From a virus: a stretch of DNA of 64,000 bases. The notes under the pieces are model-generated. The model ran no database searches and was not told the DNA's origin. It saw nothing but the letters and a program-made list of their open reading frames with translations. Shown here in pieces: positions 13,692-35,944 of the stretch. How positions within the stretch are numbered: position 1 is the first letter of the stretch; the number at the start of each line of letters is the position of its first letter. The stretch is taken from IMG/VR virus record IMGVR_UViG_3300033565_000026, positions 1 through 64,000 of that record; one strand, 5' to 3'. The position numbers and the translations under genes are program-made.

Positions 13692-13826
13692 TATAATAAC
13701 ACTATTTTACACATATCTGATTGTGATCTATGGGTTTACCCTCCCCCATCTATTTTTTATATTATTATTTTCTATCTACATCCTGAGCCCAATTAAACAC
13801 CGCCGGAACACAAGAGAGGTAATACT

Positions 13827-14231
13827 ATGATAACTGCATATGATGTTTCTGCCGATCTTCTAATAAAAAACGTATCGCAACACTTGAAAATCGAAATTGA
13901 ACCGCCCACATGGGCATTTCATGTTAAAACAGGTCAACACAAAGAATTACAACCCGTTCAGCCGGATTGGTGGTATATTCGTTGTGCGTCAATCCTGAGA
14001 AAAATATATTTTCACGGTCCAATCGGAACGGAGAGGCTAAGATCTGCTTATGGTGGAAAAATAGATAACGGTGTAAAACCTGCACATCATGTTAAGGGCA
14101 GTGGGTCTATTGCTCGCAAGGCAGTCCAACAGCTTGAATCTGTTGGGTATCTTGAAAAATGTAGAGATGGTAGAAGAATTAGTGTGAAGGGTAGGAGTTT
14201 TTTAGATAGAATTGCTTTTGAGGCTGTTTAA
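13827..14231 (+). CDS. rps19e: Ribosomal protein eS19 (S19e)
   Basis: 134 aa. As I recall archaeal S19e, it is colinear with that family over the whole length: [55 protein letters not shown]. It has an SD (GAGAGGTAAT) and its own hairpin plus T-run. None of the usual ribosomal-operon neighbours are present. Confidence 0.85.
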
Positions 14232-14245
14232 GCCTCATCTTTTTT
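14220..14245 (+). terminator. Hairpin plus T-run after rps19e
   Basis: GAGGCT-GTTTA-AGCCTC overlaps the stop codon and is followed by TCTTTTTT. Confidence 0.45.
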
Positions 14246-14253
14246 CAACATCT

Positions 14254-14520
14254 TCATAAAATCAATCTCACATTAACCTTTTCATACAACCCGTCCCACA
14301 TTGACCCTATATACTCAATCCCATCATAAACAGGATAAATAGTATCGTGGATATAGTACCAAGGGGATTTAAAATCTGATACAATCGAATCGTTTGATAC
14401 TGCAATTTCTCCGGTGTAACTATTAAACATGTATTTAAATTGTTTTTTGCGTGCAATTTTTACTATTCTATTAGGATTACCTATATTTATTGTTTGTATT
14501 TCTAGTCCTATGTTTTCCAT
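14254..14520 (-). CDS. Hypothetical protein
   Basis: 88 aa, preceded by AAGGAGTG. The N-terminus MENIG resembles that of the neighbouring 14528-14674 ORF (MENIR). Confidence 0.55.
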   Translation of the reverse strand: MENIGLEIQTINIGNPNRIVKIARKKQFKYMFNSYTGEIAVSNDSIVSDFKSPWYYIHDTIYPVYDGIEYIGSMWDGLYEKVNVRLIL

Positions 14521-14527
14521 GTGTTAT

Positions 14528-14674
14528 TCACTCCTTCTTTCCTTCTCTATAAAAACAATCCCCTGATTTTGGGGGTTCTATATCCTTTAATTGGGAATTA
14601 GGCGTATATCCAGCACTTAATCCTAGTTTTTGGATCAGAATGTTTTGAGTGTTATCTACTCTAATGTTTTCCAT
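14528..14674 (-). CDS. Small hypothetical protein (48 aa)
   Basis: ATG at 14674 and TGA at 14528-14530. Below the track cut-off. Confidence 0.35.
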   Translation of the reverse strand: MENIRVDNTQNILIQKLGLSAGYTPNSQLKDIEPPKSGDCFYREGKKE

Positions 14675-14692
14675 GCTTTATTCCTCATTCAA

Positions 14693-14902
14693 TCATCTAT
14701 ATTCTTCAGGTAGTGAACTTTTCAAAATCTCAATCATATACTCTTTAGCTTCCTTACCCATATTCTGAATCACGTTTTTAAACTCTTCACTGTTATCAAT
14801 ATAAATTCCCTGCATTGCAGAAAGTGCGCCTTCGTTGTTTATTCTCATTGCTTCGCAAATTAGTTTCTGATCTTCTTGTGTGAATTCGGTAAATTGTTTC
14901 AT
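14693..14902 (-). CDS. Hypothetical protein
   Basis: The internal ATG at 14902 is preceded by AGGAGAACTAAAACA, a variant of the leader motif. This start also removes the overlap with 14907-15098. Confidence 0.55.
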   Translation of the reverse strand: MKQFTEFTQEDQKLICEAMRINNEGALSAMQGIYIDNSEEFKNVIQNMGKEAKEYMIEILKSSLPEEYR

Positions 14903-14906
14903 TGTT

Positions 14907-15098
14907 TTAGTTCTCCTGTGCATTATTTTCATATTTTTCTAATTTCAATTTTAATTTCTCGTTCTCTTCTGTTAATTTGTCATTTTCTGCCATAATTAGC
15001 CTTATTATAGTATCGTCTGTAGGATTTCCATACTTCGTTCCTCTGTTTCGTAAGTCCTTTACGGTAAATTCATTTATCCTAATCTGTTTTAGTGACAC
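14907..15098 (-). CDS. Small DNA-binding-like protein with a leucine-zipper tail
   Basis: 63 aa with a GTG start. The ..DDTIIRLIMAENDKLTEENEKLKLKLEK tail is similar to that of 39811-40050. It is divergent from repeat A. Confidence 0.45.
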   Translation of the reverse strand: MSLKQIRINEFTVKDLRNRGTKYGNPTDDTIIRLIMAENDKLTEENEKLKLKLEKYENNAQEN

Positions 15099-15163
15099 AG
15101 ACAGTAATTAGTTTCATTATATTTAAATGTTACTACTCGTAACTCACAGAGTTACTAATGGTA

Positions 15164-15244
15164 ACAAGTTATTTATACTACTTCTTACATATAGAATAGT
15201 ACACAAGGGCGAAATGCCCTGATATATAAAGGAGATAATAAATT
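15164..15244 (+). promoter_or_regulatory. Duplicated promoter/5'UTR module, copy A
   Basis: About 80 nt that align with 29241-29324 at roughly 85-90 percent identity. It has a TATA-like ATTTATACTAC, a conserved hairpin GGGC-GAAAT-GCCC, then GGAGA and the ATG. Confidence 0.6.
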
Positions 15245-16608: not shown

Positions 16609-16714
16609 TATTGAATTGCCAATGTAACTTTATTTTTTACATGATGTTTAAACATCTGTTCTTACATTGGCAATCAAAACCGGTAGTTATATATACGTTC
16701 ATTGGCAATTAATG
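16609..16714. repeat. ORB-like repeats upstream of orc1/cdc6 (3 copies)
   Basis: 16609-16628 is inverted; 16661-16678 and 16697-16714 are direct. All share the core ACATTGGCAAT of the consensus GTTACATTGGCAATTGAATA. Confidence 0.65.
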
Positions 16715-16740: not shown

Positions 16741-17970
16741 GTGGAATTATCAAGGAAAATAAGCCAATTCTATTCTAAACCCTCGGTGTTCAGAGACAAA
16801 GACGTATTAAAAAAAGGGCATCATCCACAGTCATTAGATGAAGTCCTTCACAGAGATGAAGTAATTAATAAATATGTAACTGTTTTACAGGAAGCTATCA
16901 AAGGGAAAGTTCCAGATAACCTGTTTATATATGGAACATTTGGAACTGGAAAAACGATGTTAGCGAGATTGATTACGTCTGAGATAGCTATGGCCGCAGA
17001 ACAGTTAGGAAATAGTGTAATTCCAATTTATATCTATTGCGAAACTGTGAGTGCTCCAAGCCCTCTAATGCAGTTTATTAATCAATCTATCATAGAAAAA
17101 CTACATGGAGTTAATAAACTTGTAGGAATATCGAAAGCCAAAAACTTTGATTATTTTTATGAATTGGTAGAAGAGGCAAAAGTGCCAATTATACTTATTT
17201 TTGATGAAATTGACAAACTCAAAGAACCTGACATTATAAATCAAATTTCGAGAATAAAGGAGTGTGGATTTACAAAACGCAATGTTTGTATTATCGGAAT
17301 AACCAACGACACTAATTTTTATAATAATCTTAATGGAAGGACAAAAAGCATAATAGGACAGAATGAATTATTTGTGCCTCCTTATGATGCGGATGAGCTT
17401 ATAGATATCTTGAATTTACGAGCTAAACAGGCATTTATAAACGACTCATTAGATGAAGTTGTAATTCCCCTATGTGCTGCTTTTGGTGCTCAAGAGAATG
17501 GGGATGCTAGGACAGCAATAGATCTACTCAGGACAGCCGGTGACCTCGCAGATCAAAGAGATAGTAGGATAGTAGAAGAATGTGACGTGAGAGCCGCAAA
17601 AGGCGGGATGGAATTAAACAGACAGCTTGAAGTTGTAAAAGGCTTGCCCACTCAAACAAAAAGCGTTCTTTTGGCATGTCTCTTAAAATATAAGAAAACT
17701 GGAAATGCATTAGAGACTAATGAGGTATATCCAATATACTCAAAAATATGCGAGATAACTTCATTAGATCCCGTTAAAACGAGGAGATTTAATGATTACA
17801 TAGGGGAATTAAACACACTAGGAATTATGTCCGTAAACAAGATCTCAAGAGGGAGGAAGAAAGGAGTTTACAACGCAATCAGACTGCTTGTAGAAACAGA
17901 TTCATTAGAAGAGATTATATTGCAGGATGATAGGTTTGAAGGATTTAGAAGAGGGAAAGATGAACTCTGA
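16741..17970 (+). CDS. cdc6: Orc1/Cdc6 replication initiator
   Basis: 409 aa with a GTG start after AGGTGAAAAC. It has Walker A GTFGTGKT, Walker B ILIFDEID and sensor-like GITND. The GDARTAIDLLR motif and a C-terminal winged-helix segment are typical of archaeal Orc1/Cdc6. Confidence 0.9.
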   Translation: MELSRKISQFYSKPSVFRDKDVLKKGHHPQSLDEVLHRDEVINKYVTVLQEAIKGKVPDNLFIYGTFGTGKTMLARLITSEIAMAAEQLGNSVIPIYIYCETVSAPSPLMQFINQSIIEKLHGVNKLVGISKAKNFDYFYELVEEAKVPIILIFDEIDKLKEPDIINQISRIKECGFTKRNVCIIGITNDTNFYNNLNGRTKSIIGQNELFVPPYDADELIDILNLRAKQAFINDSLDEVVIPLCAAFGAQENGDARTAIDLLRTAGDLADQRDSRIVEECDVRAAKGGMELNRQLEVVKGLPTQTKSVLLACLLKYKKTGNALETNEVYPIYSKICEITSLDPVKTRRFNDYIGELNTLGIMSVNKISRGRKKGVYNAIRLLVETDSLEEIILQDDRFEGFRRGKDEL

Positions 17971-17982: not shown

Positions 17983-18217
17983 TATTCAATTGCCAATGTA
18001 ACCAAGAAACTACTTGAGTGCTCTAAAAATAAAAAGCATTTAGCTTAATAATAAAAAAGCATTGTGACTTAATATGAAAGTTATACTATATATACTTAAC
18101 TATTACAAAATAAAATGTGTATTTCCAATAAATAAAATTTAATGTTACATTGGCAATTGAATAACTAAATAACTAGGGTTAATATGTTTATGGCTGTTAC
18201 ATTGGCAATTGAATAAC
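17983..18217. repeat. ORB-like repeats and AT-rich putative unwinding region downstream of orc1/cdc6
   Basis: An inverted copy lies at 17983-18002. Two identical direct copies, GTTACATTGGCAATTGAATAAC, lie at 18144-18165 and 18196-18217. About 140 bp of very AT-rich DNA separates the inverted and direct copies. Confidence 0.65.
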
Positions 18218-18527: not shown

Positions 18528-18914
18528 TTAATTAAAAACAGCTTTCTTTTCTTCCATTATTGCAATCTTCTGAGATAAATCAGATGATCCCTTATACTCT
18601 GCGATTACTACCTTATTGCAGGCTTCCAGATAAGCCTCAAAAGCTTCCTTCTGTTCTCCATAATTCCTGTTTGACCAATTCCCTTGAAGTCTGAGTTGAT
18701 AATTAATATCTTCGGCAGCTTCCTTTGATGGGTTCTCTATCAGATCCTGCATCATTGCATTAACTTCTGATACTCTAATATTAATTTCCTGAGTATAAGG
18801 ATCTATGGGCTCGTTGTGTATCTCAGAAACCGTATATCCTCCAGTTGCTCCAATTAGCATGAGTGCAACAACTGTATAAATCTCCCTCTGGAATCTCTCA
18901 AATATATAATTCAT
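18528..18914 (-). CDS. Membrane-anchored protein (last gene of the VirB4 cluster)
   Basis: 128 aa, preceded by GAGGAGTG, with a single N-terminal hydrophobic helix (VVALMLIGATGGY). Confidence 0.55.
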   Translation of the reverse strand: MNYIFERFQREIYTVVALMLIGATGGYTVSEIHNEPIDPYTQEINIRVSEVNAMMQDLIENPSKEAAEDINYQLRLQGNWSNRNYGEQKEAFEAYLEACNKVVIAEYKGSSDLSQKIAIMEEKKAVFN

Positions 18915-18917
18915 AAT

Positions 18918-19139
18918 TCACTCCTCAATAAAAACCCTTATCTGTTTCCCTTCTGTTCCAACTGGAAACCTAATTGATACATACCTTGATTCTGGAATTA
19001 TTATTGGTTCCCCTTCTCTTTCTCCCTGGGTTCTTGTGTACTCCCTCCATTTTGAGCGAAAAAGGAGATAAGCCTCACCAAGTCCCTGAATAATATTTAA
19101 TTCTTTTTTATTCTCAGATGATAAATTTTTATAAGACAT
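18918..19139 (-). CDS. Hypothetical protein
   Basis: 73 aa ORF lying 3 nt upstream of the next gene. Confidence 0.5.
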   Translation of the reverse strand: MSYKNLSSENKKELNIIQGLGEAYLLFRSKWREYTRTQGEREGEPIIIPESRYVSIRFPVGTEGKQIRVFIEE

Positions 19140-19276
19140 GAAACCTCAACAATATTTTATAAAGTGTACTTTCTATTTATACTTTGTTTCCACGAAACTA
19201 TGTGTACGTTGTCGAATTTGGTGGTTTCAACCTACCACATTTGACAGGTACATGTAGTAACCAGAAAAACGGAGGA

Positions 19277-21880
19277 TTAATAAACCTCCATTTGATCTGC
19301 AACCGTTTCAAACCGATCTGAATTTACGGTTTCACGGTTTTGTAATTCATCTCTAATGAGTTCTAATTTACGAAGGAGTTTACCCCCCTGTGGAACCACA
19401 TAACAAGCAGCCCTAGACTTTAACATCTCGGTACATGTTGCACCTGCTCCGGTGAAAATAATATTCTTATAACCGGCATCCTCTGCACGGTCTTTCTTTT
19501 CATCGAAGTCTAATGTTCCATGTGTGTCTTGCCCTTCAAATTCCAGGCATCCAGAGTTATCAGGATCAATTAAGTTTCCATTCAGGCCTACTTCTCCCCA
19601 TGTAATATCGGCTAAATCATTGTGGTGGATCTGGAGGTTAGGGAAACAGCCCCACTGTTTCATTTTTCCGTATATAGCACATACAGCGCAGTAATGTTTC
19701 CAGCCCTCAACGCCTATTAAGTCCTGCTTTTTCTTCCCGTTCTTCGTTGTTCCCTCTACTTTCTTCACCTTCGAGGACTTCACCCATGCACTAATAGAAC
19801 CCGAACCGAAAGGATCAGTCGGATTATAATTTGCATATGCAGAAAGGTCTGCTTTACTAAAGTTTTCTACCCAGTAATCTATAAAGAATTCCTCGGTTTC
19901 TACGAAATCACGGAGAGTTTCTTCAATGATTAAACCGCTTTGAGTTGACGCTTTTTTAACGGTCATTTTGTTCTTTCCTAAGAGGGCATCTTCTACCATA
20001 TCCTCTAAAACTACATCCATATTTATTGCATAAGGATGTTTTAAGAAAAGACATATGCCCCGCCCTTCCTCCAGCAGCCTCTCCCTATGTTCTTCCTTGA
20101 GGCTGAACACTTTATTAAACATATCAATTACAGAGTCCTTTAAGTTGCAGAGCAGGAATATGTTTGAACAGTTTGCTTTGATGAAATTAAGAGTATCAAT
20201 TCCGATCCCTTCGGGATCCTGTGTTGCAAAGATTGTAGTAATGAACGCACTCCTTGATTCTCGGAACATCTTTTCAATAAAAGGCTTTAGATTGTCTATT
20301 TTAAGGAGTTTAGCGCCTTCATCGAAAAATACATCTGTCCTTCTCTGTTCTACGTCCTCGGAGGAAAAGAACCGAGTGTTAATTATGCCCATCATAAGCA
20401 CGCTAAAGGCGTTCTGGAGGTTCAAAGATAGAGCAGATATATCTAATATAAGAAGGTCGTTATCAAGCTCTGGCGCGTTGTGGTTGTCTATCCAGTTAAG
20501 AGCGCATCCCTCAGTAGCTTCTATTGTGTCATATAAGAGAGCATTTAATGTAGGGTTAAATTTTGCAGTATTCAGGCCATCAATATAAGAATACCATTCT
20601 CCGAAGGAAGGCCATTCATCAGGATCAGCCCACTTATCAAGGTTTATTGCTCTTCCTTTCTTATCAACAAGTTCATGTTTTCGGTAAAGGTCCGCGAGAG
20701 TTTTTATAAACATTCCTTTTTTACGGCCTTTGAATGAGAGTCCAATCCATCCAGCCATAAAGCCTTTCAGGGTTTCATAGTGGTCTAATAGAGCTTTATC
20801 GTATGAATCCTGAGACGTACCCATCGTTTTAGGGTCATAAAATACCTGAAATGGATTAAAAGCATATTCAGGCATTCTAAGATGTTTCCCTTCAAACACA
20901 TTACAGAAGTTCTTATAATCAGTCCCTCCGCTTTTTTCATCTTTTGGCTGGAGGATAATAACCCTATGTCCTTTTGCCAAAGCTCTTGCCGCCCAAGTAC
21001 ATTCAAAAACCGTTTTACCGCTTCCGGTTTTCCCCATTATAAAGCTATGTCCCGCATCCTCTAAATTAAAATCCACTTTTACGGGTTTTCCAGTATCATC
21101 AATTCCAAGAATTATTCCGTCTTCAGGATATTGAGGATTAATAGCTCTGAGGGGCATCATTTTTGAAACTGTTTTCCCTGCAGTTGGTTGCAGTACATCA
21201 GGATCTATAAAGTTCGTTGGAAGGATGGATTTTATAACTCTTAATTGTCCATGCCTGGGGATTTCATATCTTATACCGCACTCTTCAAGAGTTCCTATGA
21301 TAGTATCAATAAGGGAATCAACATCTTTTTGAGTTTTCCCAAAAACCGCAGCGCATAACCCATAATTATAATAGTGATCTCTTCCATGAAATACGTTAGC
21401 TGTTGCCTTCTGTAATTCCTGGCCGTTCAGGCTGTTATACTGAGAGTTGATAGTCTGCTGTTCCCCGTTCTTCTGTTGCTCTTTTGACTGTTCAGTCTTT
21501 TCAATGGACTTCCCTAACATCTCAGCTTCTACGAGTGGATTGAGAGGAACCATTATATGCCCATAAATTATAGCAGCGTTTTCAGTTGCCGATATTTTAA
21601 TTAATTCGTCAACTGCTTTATCTGAAAAATCTTCATCATACCCCTTTCTTATATCCTGTCTCTTCGTTGTTTTCCCTATAATGAGAGCTTGCCCCCACAT
21701 CTTATTTACTTTTACATACCATCCATCCTTCGTGGCTTCGATGTCAGCAGGACACGCTAAAAATGAAAGGGTTTGAGTTCTCGCGGTCTTCCGGTCTAAC
21801 TGCTCTTTCTCCATCTGTTTTATTTCTCTCTCAACCTTCCAGCATTTCAATTTGTAATAGTTATTTAAAAAGAAATTCAC
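19277..21880 (-). CDS. VirB4/TrbE-like secretion ATPase with a C-terminal nuclease-like extension
   Basis: 867 aa. An N-terminal domain of about 270 aa precedes Walker A FIMGKTGSGKT, followed by VFFDEGAKLL and TTIFATQDP. The C-terminal 200 aa or so (EGWKHY..DLADITW..CLEFEGQ) shows a weak E..D..ExE/Q PD-(D/E)XK-like pattern. Membrane-protein genes are co-oriented upstream. Confidence 0.6.
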   Translation of the reverse strand: MNFFLNNYYKLKCWKVEREIKQMEKEQLDRKTARTQTLSFLACPADIEATKDGWYVKVNKMWGQALIIGKTTKRQDIRKGYDEDFSDKAVDELIKISATENAAIIYGHIMVPLNPLVEAEMLGKSIEKTEQSKEQQKNGEQQTINSQYNSLNGQELQKATANVFHGRDHYYNYGLCAAVFGKTQKDVDSLIDTIIGTLEECGIRYEIPRHGQLRVIKSILPTNFIDPDVLQPTAGKTVSKMMPLRAINPQYPEDGIILGIDDTGKPVKVDFNLEDAGHSFIMGKTGSGKTVFECTWAARALAKGHRVIILQPKDEKSGGTDYKNFCNVFEGKHLRMPEYAFNPFQVFYDPKTMGTSQDSYDKALLDHYETLKGFMAGWIGLSFKGRKKGMFIKTLADLYRKHELVDKKGRAINLDKWADPDEWPSFGEWYSYIDGLNTAKFNPTLNALLYDTIEATEGCALNWIDNHNAPELDNDLLILDISALSLNLQNAFSVLMMGIINTRFFSSEDVEQRRTDVFFDEGAKLLKIDNLKPFIEKMFRESRSAFITTIFATQDPEGIGIDTLNFIKANCSNIFLLCNLKDSVIDMFNKVFSLKEEHRERLLEEGRGICLFLKHPYAINMDVVLEDMVEDALLGKNKMTVKKASTQSGLIIEETLRDFVETEEFFIDYWVENFSKADLSAYANYNPTDPFGSGSISAWVKSSKVKKVEGTTKNGKKKQDLIGVEGWKHYCAVCAIYGKMKQWGCFPNLQIHHNDLADITWGEVGLNGNLIDPDNSGCLEFEGQDTHGTLDFDEKKDRAEDAGYKNIIFTGAGATCTEMLKSRAACYVVPQGGKLLRKLELIRDELQNRETVNSDRFETVADQMEVY

Positions 21881-22750: not shown

Positions 22751-22754
22751 CTTA

Positions 22755-23843: not shown

Positions 23844-23852
23844 GTTTCCCCC

Positions 23853-26929: not shown

Positions 26930-26955
26930 TCCCATCTTGTTTTTAAGGTGATTAT

Positions 26956-29633: not shown

Positions 29634-30470
29634 TTAAGTCTTAATCACATTATTTTTTAAAATAGCTCCCTGGACACTTATTCCTGGAGACTTACACTTT
29701 TCAATTATATTCTCTTTTATGAGAACATTACTCATTTTTGTATTTAATCCAATTATTCCAGGATAAGGTAAGCCTCTAATCTTATTTCCTTCTATTGTAA
29801 TATCTTTTAAACTCCCTTGTAATTGTAATCCTGTATAACCTCCTCCTGAAGTTACACAAGAATTATAAGAGAACTCTCCTTTATCAACATTATAAAATCT
29901 ACATGAAGAGTTTGTTCTATTTATAAATACAGAATTATATACTGAGATATTAGAGCAATCATAACAATAAATACCGTCATGTCCACACTTATTTACTGTG
30001 ATTCCATCTATGAGAACATTAGAACAGTCATGGAGTAAAACAGCATCATTGCAGCCATTTTTAAAAGTGCAGTCCTCAATAGTTAATCCTGAAACACCTA
30101 TAAAATTACACATATTAAATTGAGATGTGCCTAATTTTACATCTGGATAATAATCTGCTTGACTTCCATCAATGGTAATCCCACTTAGCTTAATATCCTT
30201 TACAGATGCGTTTCTACTCATTAACATTGCTTTTTCTTCTAAGATTGAACATTTAGGATATCCCCATTTAGAAAGCCCTTTAACGAGCTTTAAAATAGCT
30301 CCACCTTGTAAAATAGTATGTGAAGGGAATAATAGAGAATCTTTAATAGAATATATCTGATTTTCTTCTAGCTCAACGACTCCGGCATGACTTAAAGCCT
30401 GGTTCAACTCCTTTGACGTAATGCCTTTGTATGTACGTTTTTTGCCATCATTACCGTGAGCTATTATCAT
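29634..30470 (-). CDS. Beta-helix protein without a signal peptide
   Basis: 278 aa with repeated turns (CNDAVLLHDCSNVLIDGITVNKCGHDGIYCYDCSNISVYNSVF) and no N-terminal hydrophobic segment. Confidence 0.6.
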   Translation of the reverse strand: MIIAHGNDGKKRTYKGITSKELNQALSHAGVVELEENQIYSIKDSLLFPSHTILQGGAILKLVKGLSKWGYPKCSILEEKAMLMSRNASVKDIKLSGITIDGSQADYYPDVKLGTSQFNMCNFIGVSGLTIEDCTFKNGCNDAVLLHDCSNVLIDGITVNKCGHDGIYCYDCSNISVYNSVFINRTNSSCRFYNVDKGEFSYNSCVTSGGGYTGLQLQGSLKDITIEGNKIRGLPYPGIIGLNTKMSNVLIKENIIEKCKSPGISVQGAILKNNVIKT

Positions 30471-31941: not shown

Positions 31942-31942
31942 A

Positions 31943-33298
31943 TTACCTCCTGTAAATCTTATAATCGGTAGTTAGTGCCTTTGTTAGTTCTGGAAGATGT
32001 CTTTCGAAACAGGAAATTAATACTTTAGTTTCATTATCCATGGTATCAGTAAAACAGCCTAATCCATGGTATCTACATGGACTGTTATCTTGCAGGTGGT
32101 AATCTCCGTTTCCTTTGTACCATGGATCAATATTATATTCGCTCTGAACAGTCACAGCATAATTATTGTTAGTATTACCATGGTAACAATTTTCAGAGCA
32201 TACCACAGTATTTCTATTGCCTGTTAGATTGGCGATTGCTGAACCTGAAGCAGTTCCTTTATAGTTACTTTCTTTCGTGTTAGTTACTATATTTCTTGTT
32301 ACCGTGGATTTTAAGCCTACCAATATACTTGATGTCTGCCAACCAGAAAACACAATTCCATAGCCCATACACTTATCAAAAGTATTATTTTCAATGTTAG
32401 CGTCAAATCCGTCAATACAGATTCCCCCCACATCATCAGTCTTGATGGCAGCAGGCTCAAGCCCACAATTCACGGAAAGGTTATTGTGAATGTTGATATT
32501 GTTCTGCCCCGCCGTACCTATAACCCACATTGCAGGACCAAACGAATCAGAAAGAGAATTCTCAAATACTTCAATATCCTGGCAATTCCAATTTTCAGCA
32601 GTATTTTGCACCTGAATAAGTGGGCCTGTATTTCCTTTCGTGCCTCTTAATTTACAGTTATGGATTCTTCCATTTATAACAGAACGAAAACGGACAGCCG
32701 CATTAACTTCAGTATCAATATCAAGCTCCGAGACATCTACATTTCTCGCACCTGCAACACATACAACGTCATGCCCTCCTCTACTTCCTGTTATTCGCTT
32801 GATAGTGATATCCTGCCCGCCCTCAATGCGGATTCCATCGCCTAGATTATTTCTAAAATCAATATTTTCAAAAGAGCATTTAGAAGAATTTGTATATTTT
32901 ACACTGCCTAACGAACCTAACATAAAAAAATTATGATAGCCTTGCCCCCATTGCTTGGATGCTTCTTTTCCTGAATGTCCGTTCCAGCCAGGTACGAACT
33001 TCTGATAGTCTCTATTCCCTTCAAATTTGAGATTTTTAAATGTTAACTTTTCAGCAGAAGAGGGATTCTTAGGAGCAATAAGAGGGATTTGCAGCCCAAA
33101 GGGTTTTAGAGGTGCATTCTCCATTAGGGTAAACTTACAGCCTTGCCCATCCCATTCAGTATTATTATAAACTCTAATAAGTGAATTGATCTCAATGTCT
33201 GGAGTGTCAAAAATGTATTTAGCTGGAGTATTTCCAATAGAATTTATTAATTTTTGTAGTTTTTGAGAATCATCTATAGTAACGGTTACCGTTTTCAT
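31943..33298 (-). CDS. Beta-helix protein without a signal peptide (paralog of 24442-26256)
   Basis: Start set at ATG 33298, which lies 6 nt after the GGAG of TCGGAGCTATAT. GDGIRIEG..RGGHDVVC..GPLIQVQ..IHNNL aligns with GDGLRLSG..MGGHDVFF..GPAIQIQ..LHHNL. Confidence 0.65.
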   Translation of the reverse strand: MKTVTVTIDDSQKLQKLINSIGNTPAKYIFDTPDIEINSLIRVYNNTEWDGQGCKFTLMENAPLKPFGLQIPLIAPKNPSSAEKLTFKNLKFEGNRDYQKFVPGWNGHSGKEASKQWGQGYHNFFMLGSLGSVKYTNSSKCSFENIDFRNNLGDGIRIEGGQDITIKRITGSRGGHDVVCVAGARNVDVSELDIDTEVNAAVRFRSVINGRIHNCKLRGTKGNTGPLIQVQNTAENWNCQDIEVFENSLSDSFGPAMWVIGTAGQNNINIHNNLSVNCGLEPAAIKTDDVGGICIDGFDANIENNTFDKCMGYGIVFSGWQTSSILVGLKSTVTRNIVTNTKESNYKGTASGSAIANLTGNRNTVVCSENCYHGNTNNNYAVTVQSEYNIDPWYKGNGDYHLQDNSPCRYHGLGCFTDTMDNETKVLISCFERHLPELTKALTTDYKIYRR

Positions 33299-33430
33299 AT
33301 ATAGCTCCGATTTGGGCAACCTTGCCGATAAAGAAAAAGTTGAATATAAAATATAAAGATAAAGATATATTTAGATATATCTAATTAAAAAAGTGAATAA
33401 GTTTTTATAAAAAAGAAGAATTTTAAAAGT

Positions 33431-33604
33431 TTAATCGTCTGTTAAATCTCTATCTTCATTTAAAAAGTCTAAGAAATTCTCCCCAACATTCAATACTTTA
33501 AATGTTTCCTCCTTCAATACATCCAAATCGTACAAAAGAAGGATAATTTCTTTTAAGGCTTGCTCGTTCTCGCAAGGAATAAGGAGGGAAGGAAGGGAAT
33601 TCAT
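33431..33604 (-). CDS. Small acidic protein (57 aa)
   Basis: ATG 33604 overlaps the TGA of the upstream gene (ATGA). TAA is at 33431-33433. Below the track cut-off. Confidence 0.45.
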   Translation of the reverse strand: MNSLPSLLIPCENEQALKEIILLLYDLDVLKEETFKVLNVGENFLDFLNEDRDLTDD

Positions 33605-33969
33605 AATCCTCCAATCGCTAAAACAGCTTTCTCGATCTTCTTAATTTTCTCCATCCGCTCAGCAGACACATACTCGCCTTTATCTTCTCCAAGTACGTCA
33701 GCAACGGATTTAATTTGATAATTCCTAACCATTTCTTCACTAAAGAGCATACGAGGTATTTTCATTCCTTCATCTATTACAGGAAACGCAGGATTTTCAA
33801 GCAGGAATAAAAACTCATTAGTTTCAAAATCAAAATGAACAGTATGTGATATTGTGCCTTCGGGTAGTCTAATTTTATTTATCTTATTCATTTCGCCAAA
33901 CTCTTGAAACAGATTTAAGATTGCTTCTTGAGGGATTGGAAGGATCTTATAGCGGTTGGTTCGTTTCAT
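33601..33969 (-). CDS. Hypothetical protein
   Basis: 122 aa ORF. Confidence 0.6.
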   Translation of the reverse strand: MKRTNRYKILPIPQEAILNLFQEFGEMNKINKIRLPEGTISHTVHFDFETNEFLFLLENPAFPVIDEGMKIPRMLFSEEMVRNYQIKSVADVLGEDKGEYVSAERMEKIKKIEKAVLAIGGL

Positions 33970-33971
33970 TC

Positions 33972-34370
33972 TTACACCTTCCCCACCAAATACTTAACAA
34001 CTCCCTCGCTTATATGATTCCTCTTCCCCACTTCTCCGCATATCTCCCAATCTGAACTTCCTGCATCTCTCATTTCCTTAACTCTCTCAAGAGCAGAATC
34101 ATCAATTAAAAAATACTCGCTCAAATCCTTTCTATGCCCCCATACATCCCCTTCTACAACCTGAATCTTTTGCATAGAAAGGAACAATTGAATAGATTTT
34201 GACATAGATCTTTTGTAAGATTTCGGTATCTGGATTACCTCTAATTTCGGGCATTGCTCTACTATATTAAAAATATCTTTTGAAGATGGTCTATACGCAA
34301 CGTGGATAAGACGTTCAGATGGCAGCACATCGAAAATTTCATTTCGTTTTGAGATTACTCTTATTTTCAT
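33972..34370 (-). CDS. Hypothetical protein
   Basis: 132 aa. The ATG lies 7 nt after the GGAG of TCGGAGCTATACT. Confidence 0.6.
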   Translation of the reverse strand: MKIRVISKRNEIFDVLPSERLIHVAYRPSSKDIFNIVEQCPKLEVIQIPKSYKRSMSKSIQLFLSMQKIQVVEGDVWGHRKDLSEYFLIDDSALERVKEMRDAGSSDWEICGEVGKRNHISEGVVKYLVGKV

Positions 34371-34476
34371 AGTATAGCTCCGATTGTTAAAAATTAACGG
34401 AGTTATATTTTGACTTATTGTATATATTTATTACTGAAAAAAGGAGGGAAGTATAAAAGTTAGGAGATAAAAAAAG

Positions 34477-34620
34477 TTACTTTAAATGTAAAATTTCCCC
34501 GCAATAAGGACAATAAACTCTACCATCTTCTTTTATTTCTACCTTGAAACCTTTGCAGAAATGAGAACCGAAATATTGTTTAGGGCGTTTTTGTGGTTGG
34601 AAATGAGATGTTTGAATCAT
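34477..34620 (-). CDS. Small zinc-ribbon-like protein (47 aa)
   Basis: The ATG lies 8 nt after the GGAG of GCGGAGCTAAAACA. It has C..CPYC. Below the track cut-off. Confidence 0.45.
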   Translation of the reverse strand: MIQTSHFQPQKRPKQYFGSHFCKGFKVEIKEDGRVYCPYCGEILHLK

Positions 34621-34831
34621 TGTTTTAGCTCCGCATTTTTGATATCTGTTAATTATGTATTATTAAATTCAAATTAAATATTAAATAATTCAAATCTCTT
34701 AAATCTCTATTATATTATATCTAAACGAATTTCGTAATTTATTATTTAATTTATTAAATTCGTTTTAGTATAGTATAGTATAGAGTATTATTTTTGAATT
34801 TGATATTAATAAAATGCAAATTAAATATTTA

Positions 34832-35335
34832 TTAATTCAACTTTAAGAAAGATGTTACAGTATCCTTATCCAATCCTTCACTTATCCAGAAGTCTCTTGC
34901 ATACATTTTAGCTTCTTCATATGTCGCAAATTTCAAACCGTCTTTAAGATGCTGTAACCATAACACAGAACACGTCTGCTTTCTCTTCACATTAATTTTA
35001 TATTCTAACAAATGATTCCTTCTTTTTTCTTCAAGCTCACTTACTACTTTATTTACCTCTTCTTCCATTGTCTTATTTTCTTCATATTCTTTTATCATTT
35101 TGCCTAATTGCGAAATCTCTATTTCCATATCTCTTTTTTCTTGTTCCTTCTCTTCTTTCTGTCTTTTAAGTTTCTCTATGGGAGTTTCTTCGCTCTGCAT
35201 CAACACATCTATTGTATCGCGTACCAATTTTGATAAGTCAATATTTTTCTTTAAAATAAAGTCAAAATGTTTACTTTCTATACTAACAGAAGTCGTTTTA
35301 CGATCTTTCAATACTGGTGGTCTGCCTCTTCCCAT
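34832..35335 (-). CDS. Ribbon-helix-helix protein with a coiled-coil tail
   Basis: 167 aa. RGRPPVLKDRKTTSVSIESKHFDFI..LVRDTIDVL fits the RHH pattern, followed by a long E/K-rich helix. Confidence 0.5.
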   Translation of the reverse strand: MGRGRPPVLKDRKTTSVSIESKHFDFILKKNIDLSKLVRDTIDVLMQSEETPIEKLKRQKEEKEQEKRDMEIEISQLGKMIKEYEENKTMEEEVNKVVSELEEKRRNHLLEYKINVKRKQTCSVLWLQHLKDGLKFATYEEAKMYARDFWISEGLDKDTVTSFLKLN

Positions 35336-35469
35336 AGTTACACCTGCTATGAGAACGATAACCTATAAATGCAAAAAAAGACATATTCTAAATTGCAAAC
35401 AAAATATGCTTTTTAAGCTGTTTGGCTTCGGGGATGTTCTCAGCATCCTCGTTGCTTATCGTTCTCGTT

Positions 35470-35658
35470 TTATGCTGTTACGAATTTTCGAAAGTATTTA
35501 GGATATTTCTCTTTAAGCAAATCCTCTAAAACCTCATATTCGAACTTCTCTTCATCAGCTACTATTCTATTTAGTATCTTTTTAGTATCCTTCCTGATAT
35601 TTGCTTTTGTAAATTCATTCTTACTCTTCACGATTTTACCCCTTTTAAAATTGTACAA
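35470..35658 (-). CDS. Small RHH-like protein
   Basis: 62 aa with KANIRKDTKKILNRIV..VLEDLLKEKY. Confidence 0.45.
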   Translation of the reverse strand: MYNFKRGKIVKSKNEFTKANIRKDTKKILNRIVADEEKFEYEVLEDLLKEKYPKYFRKFVTA

Positions 35659-35944
35659 TAGTATAAACGTACTTAATGTATTTAATACTATTTAAATATT
35701 AAAAATTAATATAATAATATGTATGCTTTAGTTTCTTTTGTTGGAGATGGTGTGTCTGTGTATATCTGTTCTTTAGTTGAGTAAAAAACAGTATCAAGAG
35801 ACAACATGTCATTTGTTGGAAAAAAGAAAAATAATGTTTTATTGTTTTCAGTGGTGTCTATCCAGAAACAATGTATTTGTTTTAATGTTTGCTCCTAGTC
35901 TCCATCTCAACACATTTCATGTTTACAGCTTCCTGTATTAATGT

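What the first reader, a model, noticed from the sequence alone, without database searches (positions are those of the whole stretch)
13692..35944. A 22 kb plasmid-like accessory island inserted between terminase and portal
Seen: terS-terL (10.9-12.6 kb, + strand) are separated from the portal and Mu-F-like genes (35.9-38.1 kb, - strand) by about 22 kb. That interval carries an Orc1/Cdc6 gene with flanking ORB-like repeats, a VirB4-centred membrane cluster, an eS19 gene, secreted proteins and beta-helix cassettes.
Established: tailed viruses normally keep terminase, portal and head genes contiguous and co-oriented.
Inference: this is either a virus-plasmid (phage-plasmid or ICE-like) chimera or a second element nested in a provirus. 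The terminase relic at 13641-13691 marks the left junction as a recombination scar.
Basis: partly seen in the sequence, partly recalled or inferred. Interest (0 to 1): 0.8.

Follow-up and report, generated by a model that had tools for sequence, protein, structure and literature searches.

The report
Archaeal tailed virus with VirB4 module
The 22 kb between terminase and portal is not a recently inserted island: it is a conserved part of a lineage of about 70-75 kb archaeal tailed viruses that carries the virus's own Orc1 replication origin and a conjugation-like (VirB4-centred) membrane gene cassette, a combination I found no description of in viruses.

Summary
The portal was only recognisable by predicted fold.

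The "inserted island" reading fails. Three related metagenomic viruses keep the same gene set between terS-terL and a divergently oriented MuF-portal pair. One of them is a complete, circularly closing 75.3 kb genome, and portal identity to the window is only 36-41%. The interval has no integrase and no att-like repeats. Its composition matches the left arm (tetranucleotide r = 0.98).

The terL "relic" is real. It is better explained as the footprint of a 1.07 kb HNH homing-endonuclease cassette at the 3' end of terL.

What stands out is a seven-gene cassette (18.5-26.3 kb) that is conserved in all these viruses:
- a membrane-anchored beta-helix protein
- a pilin-like protein (signal peptide plus 2 TM)
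- a VirB6-like polytopic protein
- a VirB3/8-like protein
- a full-length VirB4 ATPase
- two small proteins

The same cassette also occurs next to a plasmid-type primase. It is shared at 82% nucleotide identity with a contig whose flanks differ.

Best reading: an ancient virus-plasmid hybrid architecture with a minimal type-IV-secretion-like apparatus. DNA transfer by that apparatus is inferred, not shown.

The parts
10918..11343 (+). terminase small subunit (terS)
   Evidence: PHROG terS families, best 2.7e-7. An HTH domain is found. It is conserved upstream of terL in L014, L015 and L016.
11344..12621 (+). terminase large subunit (terL)
   Evidence: Pfam Terminase_6N 3.1e-10; phrog_2 7.3e-45. 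46% identity to Bacillus phage Flasso TerL. 63-76% identity to terL in three related viral contigs.
12618..13624 (+). inserted cassette: 68-aa ORF plus 262-aa Zn-ribbon / endonuclease VII-HNH-like protein (probable free-standing homing endonuclease)
   Evidence: PHROG endonuclease VII 1.8e-9 and endonuclease 1e-8. It is absent after terL in L014-L016. Homologues sit elsewhere in L010, L012 and L022.
13641..13691 (+). relic copy of the terL 3' end
   Evidence: 13654-13690 is 76% identical to 12581-12617 (D13). It translates to NYSSLDYRGVYEGNY*, against terL NYNSPLDYRGVYESSYY*.
13827..14231 (+). virus-borne ribosomal protein eS19 (divergent)
   Evidence: PF01090 7.7e-53. The best of 1.84 billion representatives is only 56% identical. 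It is not found after terL in relatives.
14907..15098 (-). small conserved ORF (63 aa) at a divergent promoter; candidate regulator
   Evidence: 68% identical homologue at the equivalent position after terL in L016. The adjacent hairpin is also conserved.
15175..15229 (+). 55-nt promoter/leader-like repeat, copy 1 (copy 2 at 29256-29310)
   Evidence: 89% identical pair. Each copy ends 15 nt upstream of a small + strand ORF, and the flanks are unrelated (D5, 31, 32).
16609..16712 (.). ORB-like repeats upstream of orc1 (16609-16628 inverted; degenerate copies around 16661 and 16697)
16741..17970 (+). Orc1/Cdc6 replication initiator
   Evidence: Cdc6_lid 7.3e-25; Cdc6_C 2.6e-21; TIGR02928 2.5e-97. 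Homologues (35% identity) are found in the 75 kb relative and in L022.
17983..18215 (.). probable replication origin: inverted ORB pair 17983-18002 / 18144-18163 around an AT-rich stretch, plus a third copy at 18196-18215
   Evidence: Exact 20-mers, 0.04 expected by chance. The sequence was read. The relative has an analogous repeat layout around its own orc1, with a different repeat sequence.
18528..19139 (-). two small conserved cassette genes (128 aa and 73 aa) downstream of VirB4
   Evidence: Conserved after VirB4 in L005, L007, L010, L011, L014, L021 and L022.
19277..21880 (-). full-length VirB4-family ATPase (867 aa) with an uncharacterised ~230-aa C-terminal extension
   Evidence: The A3 profile against PDB 4ag5 (VirB4) gives 2e-20. 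NCBIfam: VirB4_plasma 6.9e-25 (residues 113-617), CD1110 VirB4-like 1.2e-17, TraC 5.8e-14, VirB4_CagE 3e-11, CedB 8.8e-7. The C-terminal part has no Pfam hit.
21881..22750 (-). 289-aa protein with an N-terminal TM hairpin (VirB3/VirB8-like position)
   Evidence: Topology. It is conserved directly upstream of VirB4 in all module loci. No PDB or Pfam hit.
22755..23843 (-). 362-aa polytopic membrane protein (VirB6-like position and topology)
   Evidence: Signal peptide plus 4-6 TM. In the Foldseek search of the AF2 model, the first hit that is not a designed protein is TrwI/VirB6 (7o3v_F), but it is not significant (E 0.58, TM 0.30/0.36).
23853..24347 (-). 164-aa protein with signal peptide plus two TM helices (VirB2/TedC-like pilin layout)
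   Evidence: Topology. The same layout is found in 8 loci, with an invariant Pro before the A-A cleavage site and a basic loop between the TMs.
24442..26256 (-). first cassette gene: signal peptide, beta-helix/disaggregatase-related ectodomain, conserved C-terminal ~190 aa with TM anchor
   Evidence: Disaggr_assoc 9.9e-28; Beta_helix 4.6e-10. TM segments. The C-terminal domain is conserved (43-45%) while the N-terminal beta-helix is swapped between loci.
26330..27459 (+). two proteins with a signal-peptide-like N-terminus (199 and 167 aa)
   Evidence: N-terminal hydrophobic segments. No family hits. A homologue of the 167-aa protein lies next to MuF in L002.
29634..30470 (-). beta-helix protein (278 aa)
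   Evidence: Beta_helix 5.2e-23.
31943..33319 (-). beta-helix / disaggregatase-related protein (458 aa)
   Evidence: Disaggr_assoc 9.9e-20. Its homologue lies next to DUF1699 in L003 and L015.
33972..34370 (-). DUF1699 protein
   Evidence: PF08004 2.5e-49. Syntenic in L003 (next to MuF) and L015 (next to terL).
35945..36598 (-). MuF-like head morphogenesis protein
   Evidence: No direct hit. 2 of 4 family members hit PF04233, best 1.2e-5. It always follows the portal gene.
36683..38101 (-). portal protein
   Evidence: AF2 model with pLDDT 60.6. All 50 listed Foldseek PDB hits are portal proteins, best 1.5e-7.
40197..42807 (+). head module: 340-aa scaffold-like protein, 206-aa protein, major capsid protein 41842-42807
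   Evidence: phrog_1650 major head protein 1.2e-5. The L001 homologue carries PF25209 Phage_capsid_4. The module is divergent from the portal in all relatives.
52021..56052 (+). 1343-aa tail-fibre-like protein whose N-terminal beta-helix is shared with cassette anchor proteins of other loci
   Evidence: Residues about 11-316 match the N-terminal parts of L007, L010, L022, L024 and L015 cassette proteins at 31-35% identity. The tail-fibre role is inferred from position only.
59155..59727 (-). short tyrosine recombinase (190 aa), lying outside the interval
   Evidence: PF00589 3.3e-8; XerA-like 4.9e-5.

Best explanation
The 13.7-35.9 kb interval is the conserved non-structural middle block of a lineage of about 70-75 kb archaeal tailed viruses. 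It is not a foreign island.

Shown:
- In this genome and in three independently assembled relatives, terS-terL is separated from a divergently oriented MuF-portal pair by about 16-25 kb holding the same kinds of genes (orc1 was found in the window and in the 75 kb relative).
- The shared genes are an Orc1/Cdc6 initiator flanked by its own ORB-like repeats, DUF1699, beta-helix/disaggregatase-related proteins, and a cassette built around a full-length VirB4 ATPase.
- That cassette has a fixed gene order: membrane-anchored beta-helix protein, a small signal-peptide plus 2-TM protein, a ~350-aa polytopic protein, a ~290-aa N-terminally anchored protein, VirB4, then two small proteins.

Inferred:
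- Orc1 fires the adjacent inverted-ORB origin, so the genome can replicate as an episome, in the manner of a phage-plasmid.
- The VirB4 cassette assembles a minimal type-IV-secretion-like conduit of the monoderm or Ced/Ted type. The pilin-like subunit, the VirB6-like channel, a VirB3/8-like adaptor and the VirB4 motor would make up the apparatus. The beta-helix protein would bind or locally digest the cell-wall polysaccharide.
- The most likely job is moving DNA between neighbouring cells. This would give the element a contact-dependent route in addition to virions.

Cassette mobility: the cassette itself is exchangeable between elements. It is 82% nucleotide-identical to a contig with different flanks, and it also occurs beside a plasmid-type primase.

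The relic: the 50-nt terL relic is the footprint of a 1.07 kb HNH homing-endonuclease cassette that landed at the 3' end of terL.
For: Architecture:
- 31.3 kb contig (L015 plus L004): the order is terS-terL, DUF1699, beta-helix, VirB4 module, then MuF/portal on the minus strand, then head genes on the plus strand.
- 20.5 kb contig (L014): terS-terL, then the VirB4 module on the opposite strand about 3-4 kb downstream, as in the window.
- 75.26 kb contig (L016, L031, L032, L003): a 126-bp exact end/start overlap shows it closes as a circle. terL lies at 59.1-60.3 kb, the VirB4 module at 65.4-70.1 kb, orc1 at 2.9-4.0 kb, beta-helix/DUF1699/MuF/portal at 8.1-13.7 kb, and head genes from 13.9 kb.
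- Its orc1 is flanked by its own repeats, including an inverted pair 158 nt apart.
- L022 (from a 103 kb contig): the module and a convergent orc1 lie together.

No island signature:
- No integrase or transposase among the island ORFs scanned.
- Tetranucleotide r = 0.98 against the left arm; GC 0.349 against 0.338.

VirB4 identity: PDB 4ag5 2e-20. NCBIfam VirB4 families cover residues 41-617, that is both the N-terminal and the ATPase domains.

Module partners: topologies are conserved across 8 loci even where sequence similarity is lost.

Anchor protein: a conserved C-terminal domain with a swappable beta-helix that is shared with the tail-fibre-like protein.

Cassette exchange: 18603-26356 aligns to L005 at 81.8% over 7795 nt with unrelated flanks. 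The module lies next to a 1211-aa DnaG/Toprim primase in L007 and L008.

Relic and endonuclease.

Virus hallmarks: terL, portal fold, MCP.
Against: - Only VirB4 is identified by sequence. The VirB6-, VirB2- and VirB3/8-like assignments rest on gene order and membrane topology.
- Profile searches found nothing for these partners. The Foldseek hit to TrwI/VirB6 is not significant (E 0.58).
- No coupling protein (VirD4) and no relaxase were found, so a DNA-processing step is missing. None of the ORFs left unannotated after the family scans is longer than 377 aa, which is too small for either.
- The ATPase core also matches mad8 of the MADS defence system (1.8e-16).
- Episomal replication and any DNA transfer are untested.
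- The host is unresolved. The genome scan returned only MAG contigs labelled as bacteria and one weak Halobacillus hit.
- The eS19 gene gives no host signal.
- The remaining 8.7 kb of the source contig could not be retrieved, so an integrated state cannot be excluded.
Confidence: 0.6

Rival explanations
1. One reading: a plasmid or ICE-like element, or a second nested element, recently inserted between terminase and portal of a provirus, with the terL relic as the left recombination scar.
For: - The content is plasmid-like: Orc1 with ORB repeats and a VirB4 cassette.
- A terL 3' duplicate lies at 13641-13691.
- The terL outgroup L017 has the canonical terL-portal order.
- A 55-nt direct repeat pair brackets 15.2-29.3 kb (D5).
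Against: - The same block lies between terL and MuF-portal in three other assemblies, including a circularly closing genome, at only 36-41% portal identity.
- There is no integrase inside the interval.
- Composition equals the left arm.
- The 55-nt repeats are 89% identical promoter/leader elements with unrelated flanks, and their hairpin is conserved at the same locus in a relative.
- The relic directly follows a mobile endonuclease gene that relatives lack at that site.
Confidence: 0.05
2. Only the 7.8 kb VirB4 cassette (18.6-26.4 kb) is the mobile unit. It is a self-contained module traded horizontally among viruses and plasmid-like elements of the same host clade, and it is not a stable core function of the virus. 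This is compatible with the best explanation as regards origin.
For: - 81.8% nucleotide identity over 7795 nt to L005, with sharp loss of similarity at both ends.
- VirB4 is 95% identical there, whereas terL of the closest relatives is 63-76% identical.
- The same module lies next to a DnaG/Toprim primase in L007 and L008.
- Orientation and position inside the block differ between viruses.
- GC is slightly higher (0.376) than the rest of the interval.
Against: - All four virus genomes with terL context carry the module, even where the VirB4 proteins are only 23-32% identical. This argues for long-term retention rather than sporadic gain.
- No recombinase or terminal repeats bound the cassette.
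Confidence: 0.4
3. The VirB4 cassette is a membrane-associated defence or superinfection-exclusion system carried by the virus. It does not transfer DNA.
For: - The ATPase core matches mad8 of the MADS defence system at 1.8e-16.
- There is no relaxase or coupling protein.
- From general knowledge, temperate viruses commonly carry exclusion genes.
Against: - The VirB4-specific models match better and over more of the protein, including the N-terminal domain.
- None of the other six cassette proteins hits PADLOC.
- No other MADS components are present.
- The pilin-like, polytopic and wall-acting partners fit a trans-envelope apparatus.
Confidence: 0.12
4. The cassette builds a surface appendage or envelope-remodelling machine, used for host aggregation or adhesion (lysogenic conversion) or for virion entry or egress through a thick polysaccharide wall, without DNA translocation.
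For: - The first cassette gene is a surface-anchored beta-helix/disaggregatase-related protein. Its ectodomain is interchangeable with that of the tail-fibre-like protein.
- Further beta-helix proteins and proteins with signal-peptide-like N-termini lie nearby.
Against: - From knowledge of the family, VirB4 ATPases are known only from type IV secretion, conjugation and Ced/Ted-type DNA-transfer machines.
- The cassette also occurs in a non-viral, primase-bearing context, where an egress role makes little sense.
Confidence: 0.18
5. Assembly chimera: two unrelated replicons were joined by the assembler at 13.6-13.9 kb or 35.6-36.0 kb.
For: The source is a metagenome assembly, and reads are not available.
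Against: The same linkage (terL ... VirB4 module ... MuF-portal) was recovered in four assemblies from different samples. Composition is uniform across both junctions.
Confidence: 0.02

Closest known systems
Phage-plasmids (P1, N15, SSU5-type bacterial elements)
   Same: A tailed-virus structural and packaging gene set sits together with a plasmid-type replication module in one replicon. Such families are reported to be ancient rather than recent fusions (PMC12282955, read).
   Different: - The host here is archaeal, and the initiator is Orc1/Cdc6 with ORB repeats.
- Episomal maintenance is untested, and a tyrosine recombinase is also present.
- The element also carries a VirB4 mating-pair-formation-like cassette. 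My searches found no description of this for a tailed virus.
Ced and Ted DNA-import systems of Sulfolobales and Thermoproteales (PMC9905601)
   Same: A minimal set of a VirB4-like ATPase, a polytopic VirB6-like protein and a small two-TM VirB2-like pilin, with no relaxase and no coupling protein. The CedB model gives a weak hit, 8.8e-7.
   Different: - Ced and Ted are chromosomal, domesticated systems, whereas this cassette is on viruses and plasmid-like elements.
- There is no detectable sequence similarity for the membrane parts.
- This cassette adds a beta-helix anchor protein and a VirB3/8-like gene.
- The host is probably a euryarchaeal-type methanogen.
Monoderm-type conjugative T4SS (MPF FA/FATA; for example the prgH-prgI-prgJ-prgK region of pCF10 and the Tn916/CD1110-type ICEs; the examples are from my own knowledge)
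   Same: - The best VirB4 model hits are to monoderm ICE families: VirB4_plasma 6.9e-25 and CD1110 1.2e-17.
- The gene order is VirB6-like, then VirB3-like, then VirB4.
- A wall-degrading or wall-binding enzyme is encoded in the operon.
- FA and FATA types are the ones reported in Archaea (PMC12282955).
   Different: - No VirD4 coupling protein, relaxase or oriT could be found.
- All scores are far below the equivalog cut-offs.
- The wall enzyme is a beta-helix/disaggregatase-related protein rather than a peptidoglycan hydrolase.
pT26-2 plasmid family of Thermococcales/Methanococcales (PMC6972569)
   Same: A conserved core of many TM proteins, a VirB4/HerA-like ATPase and carbohydrate-binding proteins on archaeal mobile elements, proposed to form an unknown DNA secretion or transfer system.
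   Different: - pT26-2 elements have no capsid, portal or terminase genes.
- No sequence relationship was tested here.
- Those elements use SSV-type integrases.
Archaeal tailed viruses encoding Orc1/Cdc6 (haloarchaeal arTV; PMC8651126, seen only in the result list; the presence of Orc1 there is from my own knowledge)
   Same: Caudoviricetes-type morphogenesis genes together with a cellular-type Orc1/Cdc6 initiator.
   Different: - No VirB4 cassette is reported there. The word VirB4 co-occurs with Caudoviricetes and archaea in only one, unrelated paper.
- Here terL and portal are split and the portal is inverted.
Free-standing HNH homing endonucleases beside phage terminase genes (from my own knowledge)
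   Same: A small endonuclease gene lies immediately 3' of terL with a duplicated target end. It is absent at that site in relatives, and paralogues occur elsewhere.
   Different: No HNH catalytic motif was verified by a curated model; there are only PHROG endonuclease VII/endonuclease families. Homing is not demonstrated.

Membership tests
Tailed dsDNA virus (Caudoviricetes) | Large terminase subunit | tested here: met
   Terminase_6N 3.1e-10; phrog_2 7.3e-45; 46% identity to phage TerL proteins.
Tailed dsDNA virus (Caudoviricetes) | Portal protein fold | tested here: met
   All 50 listed Foldseek matches of the AF2 model are portal proteins (best 1.5e-7, prob 1.00). The model is of only moderate quality (pLDDT 60.6).
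Tailed dsDNA virus (Caudoviricetes) | HK97-fold major capsid protein | tested here: inconclusive
   phrog_1650 major head protein at 1.2e-5. The 37%-identical homologue in L001 carries PF25209 Phage_capsid_4. No structure was predicted.
Recently inserted genomic island / nested integrative element | Own integrase or transposase inside the segment | tested here: not met
   Pfam scans of 23 ORFs of 62 aa or more in 13.7-35.9 kb show none. The only recombinase is at 59155-59727.
Recently inserted genomic island / nested integrative element | Flanking att-like direct repeats at the boundaries | tested here: not met
   No repeat pair lies at 13.7 and 35.9 kb. The 55-nt pair at 15.2 and 29.3 kb is a promoter/leader element.
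Recently inserted genomic island / nested integrative element | Absent from related genomes (empty site) | tested here: not met
   The block is present between terL and MuF-portal in three related viral contigs.
Recently inserted genomic island / nested integrative element | Deviant composition | tested here: not met
   Tetranucleotide r = 0.98 and GC 0.349 against 0.338 for the left arm.
Type IV secretion / conjugative mating-pair-formation system | VirB4-family ATPase | tested here: met
   PDB 4ag5 VirB4 2e-20 over 373 profile positions. VirB4_plasma, CD1110, TraC and VirB4_CagE models give 7e-25 to 3e-11. All are below the equivalog cut-offs, so this is a family-level assignment only.
Type IV secretion / conjugative mating-pair-formation system | VirB6-like polytopic channel protein | tested here: inconclusive
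   A ~350-aa protein with 4-6 TM is conserved two genes upstream of VirB4. No profile hit. The Foldseek hit to TrwI/VirB6 has E 0.58 and TM 0.30/0.36.
Type IV secretion / conjugative mating-pair-formation system | VirB2-like pilin (signal peptide plus two hydrophobic helices) | tested here: inconclusive
   The layout is conserved in 8 loci. No homology or structure test was possible.
Type IV secretion / conjugative mating-pair-formation system | Coupling protein (VirD4/TraG) and relaxase with oriT | tested here: not met
   There is no second large ATPase and no relaxase-like ORF in the window. The TrwB/TraD hits fall on the P-loop of the VirB4 protein itself.
Ced/Ted archaeal DNA-import systems | CedB/TedB ATPase with CedA-like and CedA1/TedC-like partners, chromosomally encoded | tested here: inconclusive
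   CedB model 8.8e-7, with a score of 28 against a cut-off of 700. The partners match by topology only. The cassette is on mobile elements, not a chromosome.
Phage-plasmid | Phage structural genes plus an autonomous replication module | tested here: met
   terL, portal and MCP as above. Orc1/Cdc6 with flanking ORB-like repeats and an inverted pair around an AT-rich stretch.
Phage-plasmid | Extrachromosomal maintenance in lysogeny | not testable with these tools
   This needs culture or Hi-C/long-read data. A ParB_N-like gene (4.5e-4, below cut-off) and a short tyrosine recombinase are present.
Archaeal Orc1-dependent replication origin | orc1 adjacent to inverted origin-recognition-box repeats flanking an AT-rich unwinding element | tested here: met
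   There are 4 copies of a 20-mer, against 0.04 expected. The inverted pair is 141 nt apart over AT-rich sequence. The relative has the same layout. Origin firing itself is untested.
MADS defence system | mad8-like ATPase together with the other mad genes (methyltransferase and so on) | tested here: not met
   The mad8 hit of 1.8e-16 is on the ATPase only. The six other cassette proteins give no PADLOC hit.
Homing endonuclease insertion | Endonuclease gene at a site that is empty in relatives, with a duplicated target end | tested here: met
   Endonuclease PHROGs 1.8e-9. The terL 3' end is duplicated 1073 nt downstream. Relatives lack the gene after terL. Paralogues lie elsewhere in L010, L012 and L022. 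Catalytic activity is untested.

The most novel reading that the evidence does not exclude
This is a lineage of archaeal tailed viruses that are true dual-mode mobile elements. They replicate as Orc1-driven episomes and spread in two ways: as virions, and through a virus-encoded, relaxase-independent VirB4/VirB6/VirB2-type conduit that passes the genome directly between neighbouring cells. Its reach would be set by a swappable wall-binding or wall-degrading beta-helix protein shared with the tail fibre. That would make it the first 'conjugative virus', and the first type-IV-secretion-like transfer system tied to a probable methanogen host (a host inferred only from the Pfam families present, not resolved here).
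Probability: 0.2. Interest if true: 0.92.

Novelty: new variant of a known kind. Interest (0 to 1): 0.7.

Why it matters
If the reading holds, viruses and conjugative elements are not cleanly separate classes in Archaea. A whole viral lineage would have kept a type-IV-secretion-like cassette and a cellular-type replicon for a long time, since portal identity across the lineage is down to 36%.

This gives a concrete, testable candidate for contact-dependent DNA transfer in a group of archaea where none is known to me.

It also offers a possible way for a virus to spread inside dense, polysaccharide-embedded aggregates where virions diffuse poorly. That last point is speculation.

Practically, the case shows two things:
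- A terminase-portal gap is not by itself evidence of an insertion.
- Short gene relics next to terminase can come from homing endonucleases.

Tried and rejected
- **Exact look-ups.** Look-ups of window proteins (terL, portal, P0001) found no contig record. A 49-mer from the window start is not in IMG/VR. The missing 8.7 kb of the 72.7 kb source contig, and therefore its ends, could not be seen.
- **Portal.** Pfam, PHROGs, NCBIfam and a 14-sequence profile against PDB sequences all gave nothing. Only the fold search worked.
- **VirB6-like, VirB3/8-like and VirB2-like partners.** Profiles A4 and A5 against PDB and per-member Pfam scans of A7 gave only noise. The AF2 model of the 362-aa protein was weak (pLDDT 56.8), and Foldseek was not significant.
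- **VirB4 C-terminal extension.** No Pfam hit in five divergent homologues.
- **Host assignment.** The portal scan found nothing. The VirB4 scan found two MAG contigs labelled as bacteria, probably mis-binned, plus one weak Halobacillus hit. eS19 has no close cellular relative: 56% at best, to Nitrososphaeria/Aigarchaeota and Methanofastidiosum.
- **The 55-nt repeat pair as att sites of a nested 14 kb Orc1 plus VirB4 element.** Considered and rejected. The pair is 89% identical with unrelated flanks, each copy ends 15 nt upstream of an ORF, and the hairpin is conserved at the same locus in a relative.
- **tRNA-Gly at 39571-39650 as an integration target.** Considered and rejected. Rfam does not support it as a tRNA, and it is absent in relatives.
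- **Literature.** Nine full-text searches and several in-paper searches found no description of VirB4 in archaeal tailed viruses. The methanogen-virus compendium (Nat Microbiol 2023) is not held, so prior description there cannot be excluded.

Full report
**Layout of the window**

The window has about 30-42% G+C and carries archaeal-type genes. Reading from left to right:
- 208-13624, plus strand. This arm holds two PAPS-reductase/DUF3440 (IbrA-like) genes, a ParB_N-like gene and a Cas4-like PD-(D/E)XK nuclease. It also holds many small ORFs, terS (10918-11343) and terL (11344-12621).
- 13.7-35.9 kb, the interval under review.
- 35945-38101, minus strand: a MuF-like gene and the portal.
- 40.2-58.8 kb, plus strand: a long head-tail module, with the capsid protein at 41842-42807.
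- 59155-59727: a short tyrosine recombinase.

A 100% identical portal protein in the protein collection comes from a 72,696-bp JGI contig. The window is therefore most of that contig. The contig itself could not be retrieved.

**Checking the observation**

- eS19: PF01090 7.7e-53.
- Orc1/Cdc6: Cdc6_lid 7e-25, Cdc6_C 3e-21 and TIGR02928 2.5e-97.
- ORB-like repeats: the 20-mer GTTACATTGGCAATTGAATA occurs four times around orc1, against 0.04 expected. Two degenerate copies lie upstream. An inverted pair at 17983-18002 and 18144-18163 brackets 141 nt of AT-rich DNA. This is the classical archaeal origin layout.
- The 867-aa ATPase is a VirB4. A profile of 18 homologues hits the VirB4 structure 4ag5 at 2e-20. 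NCBIfam VirB4 models match residues 41-617, which covers the N-terminal domain as well as the P-loop domain.
- Three beta-helix proteins are present, and two of them also carry the disaggregatase-related domain.
- Two proteins have signal-peptide-like N-termini.
- The portal gave no sequence-level hit anywhere. An AlphaFold model built on 14 homologues (pLDDT 60.6) returns only portal proteins among the 50 listed Foldseek matches, including G20c, lambda, HK97 and Haloferax HFTV1.
- The MuF assignment holds through homologues: 2 of 4 hit PF04233, best 1.2e-5.

**Is it an inserted island?**

Related sequences say no.

*Portal homologues.* Portal homologues led to three viral contigs. In all of them the head genes are divergent from a portal-MuF pair, exactly as here. 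In the 75 kb relative, portal-MuF is followed by DUF1699, a beta-helix/disaggregatase-related gene and, further on, orc1 on the opposite strand. This is the same order and orientation as window 38.1 to 16.7 kb.

*terL homologues.* These retrieved the terminase regions of the same and further contigs:
- In a 20.5 kb contig, terS-terL is followed about 3-4 kb later by a VirB4 module on the opposite strand, as in the window.
- In the 31.3 kb contig the order is terS-terL, DUF1699, beta-helix, further genes, VirB4 module, then MuF/portal (minus strand), then head genes (plus strand). The block lies between terminase and portal there too, but is inverted as a whole.
- The 75,260-bp contig closes on itself with a 126-bp exact overlap, so it is a complete genome. 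terL lies at 59.1-60.3 kb, the VirB4 module at 65.4-70.1 kb, orc1 at 2.9-4.0 kb, beta-helix/DUF1699/MuF/portal at 8.1-13.7 kb, and the head genes from 13.9 kb. About 25 kb therefore separates terL from MuF, and it carries the same kinds of genes.
- Its orc1 is flanked by its own, different, repeats, including an inverted pair 158 nt apart.

*Signatures of an island.* These viruses share only 36-41% portal and 63-76% terL identity with the window. Inside the interval no integrase or transposase was found, and no repeats mark its borders. Its tetranucleotide profile correlates at 0.98 with the left arm. The head-tail module is the compositional outlier.

*The outgroup.* A more distant terL relative (54% identity, L017) has the canonical terS-terL-portal order. 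The split is therefore a derived but old trait of this lineage.

**The terL relic**

13654-13690 is 76% identical to the terL 3' end. It encodes NYSSLDYRGVYEGNY*, against terL NYNSPLDYRGVYESSYY*. The 1073 nt between the two copies hold a 68-aa ORF and a 262-aa Zn-ribbon protein that hits phage endonuclease VII and endonuclease families. Relatives have nothing like it after terL. Homologues sit at other places in other contigs. This is the pattern of a free-standing homing-endonuclease cassette that brought a replacement terL end with it. It is not the edge of a 22 kb element.

**The 55-nt repeat**

The pair at 15175-15229 and 29256-29310 is 89% identical. I considered it as att sites for a nested Orc1 plus VirB4 element. 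Each copy ends 15 nt before a small ORF, and the flanks are unrelated. Its GGGCG(A/T)AATGCCC hairpin recurs at the equivalent divergent promoter in the 75 kb relative. I read it as a regulatory element.

**The VirB4 cassette**

Seven genes on the minus strand (26256 down to 18528) form a unit:
- a 604-aa protein with a signal peptide, a beta-helix/disaggregatase-related ectodomain and a C-terminal TM anchor
- a 164-aa protein with a signal peptide and two TM helices
- a 362-aa polytopic protein
- a 289-aa protein with an N-terminal TM hairpin
- the VirB4 ATPase
- two small proteins

*Conservation.* The same order and topologies recur in every locus that carries the ATPase. They recur even in loci where VirB4 identity is only 23-32% and similarity of the small signal-peptide plus 2-TM protein, and in the most distant locus of all the membrane partners, is no longer detectable.

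*The first gene is modular.* Its C-terminal ~190 residues are conserved at 43-45%. The N-terminal beta-helix is swapped between two types. One is a disaggregatase-related type. The other is the type found at the N-terminus of the window's 1343-aa tail-fibre-like protein.

*The cassette is exchangeable.* 18603-26356 aligns at 81.8% over 7795 nt to an ENA contig whose flanks are unrelated. In three other contigs the cassette sits next to a 1211-aa DnaG-Zn-ribbon/Toprim primase, which is a plasmid-like context.

*Resemblances and gaps.* The layout is small SP plus 2 TM, polytopic, bitopic, VirB4, plus a wall-acting enzyme. It resembles minimal monoderm-type type IV secretion systems and the archaeal Ced/Ted systems. 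In Ced/Ted, VirB2-, VirB6- and VirB4-like proteins act without a relaxase (PMC9905601). It also recalls the TM-protein plus VirB4/HerA-like core of pT26-2 plasmids (PMC6972569).

Beyond VirB4, homology is unproven. Profile searches found nothing. A weak model of the 362-aa protein gives TrwI/VirB6 as its first hit that is not a designed protein, at a non-significant E of 0.58. No coupling protein or relaxase is present. The ATPase core also matches mad8 of the MADS defence system (1.8e-16), but none of the other cassette proteins hits PADLOC.

**Mechanism I commit to**

*Shown:* the interval is an old, integral part of this viral lineage. It contains a replication module and a VirB4 cassette.

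*Inferred:*
- Orc1 fires the adjacent origin, so that the genome can persist and replicate as an episome.
- The cassette builds a minimal type-IV-secretion-like trans-envelope conduit whose anchor protein binds or opens the wall polysaccharide.
- Its most likely function is contact-dependent DNA movement between neighbouring cells.

I put about 0.9 on the architecture, about 0.6 on a type-IV-secretion-like apparatus, and about 0.3-0.35 on DNA transfer as its role. Defence or exclusion and surface remodelling or egress are the live alternatives.

**Host**

The Pfam families Disaggr_assoc and DUF1699 point, from my memory of their taxonomic range, to Methanosarcina-like archaea. All related contigs have about 36-37% G+C. 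No isolate or reliably binned genome carries the portal or the VirB4. The eS19 gene is no closer than 56% to anything. The host remains unresolved.

**Novelty**

Nine literature searches and several in-paper searches found no report of VirB4 or a type-IV-secretion-like cassette in archaeal tailed viruses. One key compendium is not held. I rate this a new variant of known kinds, namely phage-plasmid-like viruses and minimal type IV secretion systems, with interest of about 0.7. The interest does not come from an "island". It comes from the conserved presence of a conjugation-type cassette in a viral lineage.

Noticed in passing
window 13827-14231 (+): A virus-borne ribosomal protein eS19 (PF01090 7.7e-53) that is divergent. 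The best of 1.84 billion representatives is 56% identical, and the named relatives are Nitrososphaeria/Aigarchaeota and Methanofastidiosum. Related viruses lack it after terL.
   Followed up: partly
window 39571-39650 (-): ARAGORN calls an 80-nt tRNA-Gly(tcc) between the portal-side genes and the head module. Rfam's tRNA model does not detect it even at E <= 1, and relatives have no tRNA there. It is doubtful as a tRNA.
   Followed up: partly
window 1-33, 5084-5158, 5901-5958: Repeated promoter-like blocks in the left arm (TCCATTGTAGTATATACAGCAAGATAAA is exact at 1 and 5126; a 58-nt pair is 79% identical). They suggest co-regulated early transcription units.
   Followed up: no
window 208-4751 (+): Two IbrA-like PAPS-reductase/DUF3440 genes (weak DndC-like hits) lie with a ParB_N-like gene and a Cas4-like PD-(D/E)XK nuclease. 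This may be a DNA-modification or anti-defence early module.
   Followed up: no
window 24442-26256 (-) and 52021-56052 (+); L007, L010, L015, L022, L024: The cassette's membrane-anchored protein keeps a conserved C-terminal ~190 aa but swaps its N-terminal beta-helix. One type is disaggregatase-related. The other is the type found at the N-terminus of the tail-fibre-like protein.
   Followed up: partly
window 19277-19990 (-), VirB4 residues ~640-867: A conserved ~230-aa C-terminal extension of VirB4 with conserved His/Cys/Asp/Glu/Lys positions (H729, C734, H753, D758, E780, E782, K795). There is no Pfam hit in five divergent homologues. A nuclease-like or metal-binding role is only a guess.
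   Followed up: partly
L007 11282-14917; L008 9143-12778: The same VirB4 cassette lies about 1.3 kb upstream of a 1211-aa DnaG-Zn-ribbon/Toprim/MTBMA_p00010-type primase, with no viral hallmark gene noted in the called-gene table or by similarity to window ORFs (these ORFs were not scanned against PHROGs). This is a plasmid-like carrier of the cassette.
   Followed up: no
L003 11407-12948: The 75 kb relative has an extra 513-aa ORF inserted between portal and MuF that the window lacks.
   Followed up: no
window 14907-15098 (-) and 15175-15229; L016 12478-12720 and 12830-12852: A 63-aa ORF (68% identical in the relative) and an adjacent GGGCG(A/T)AATGCCC hairpin form a conserved divergent promoter region after terL. 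A second copy of the 55-nt element lies at 29256-29310. This may be a shared operator for a small regulator.
   Followed up: partly
window 11344-12621 (+); L017: terL is 46-54% identical to terminases of bacterial phages (Bacillus phage Flasso, Streptomyces phages). L017 has the canonical terL-portal order, whereas the window's portal/MuF/head genes belong to a family with no recognisable sequence relatives. This looks like a mosaic origin of the packaging and head modules.
   Followed up: partly
P0010, P0013, L011, L012: Portal and VirB4 homologues occur on MAG contigs labelled Prevotella, Bacteroidales and Leptospirales. These are probably mis-binned contigs of this virus group.
   Followed up: no
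window 59155-59727 (-): The only recombinase is a 190-aa protein covering just the catalytic domain of tyrosine recombinases (PF00589 3.3e-8). It could be truncated, split, or a resolvase rather than an integrase.
   Followed up: no
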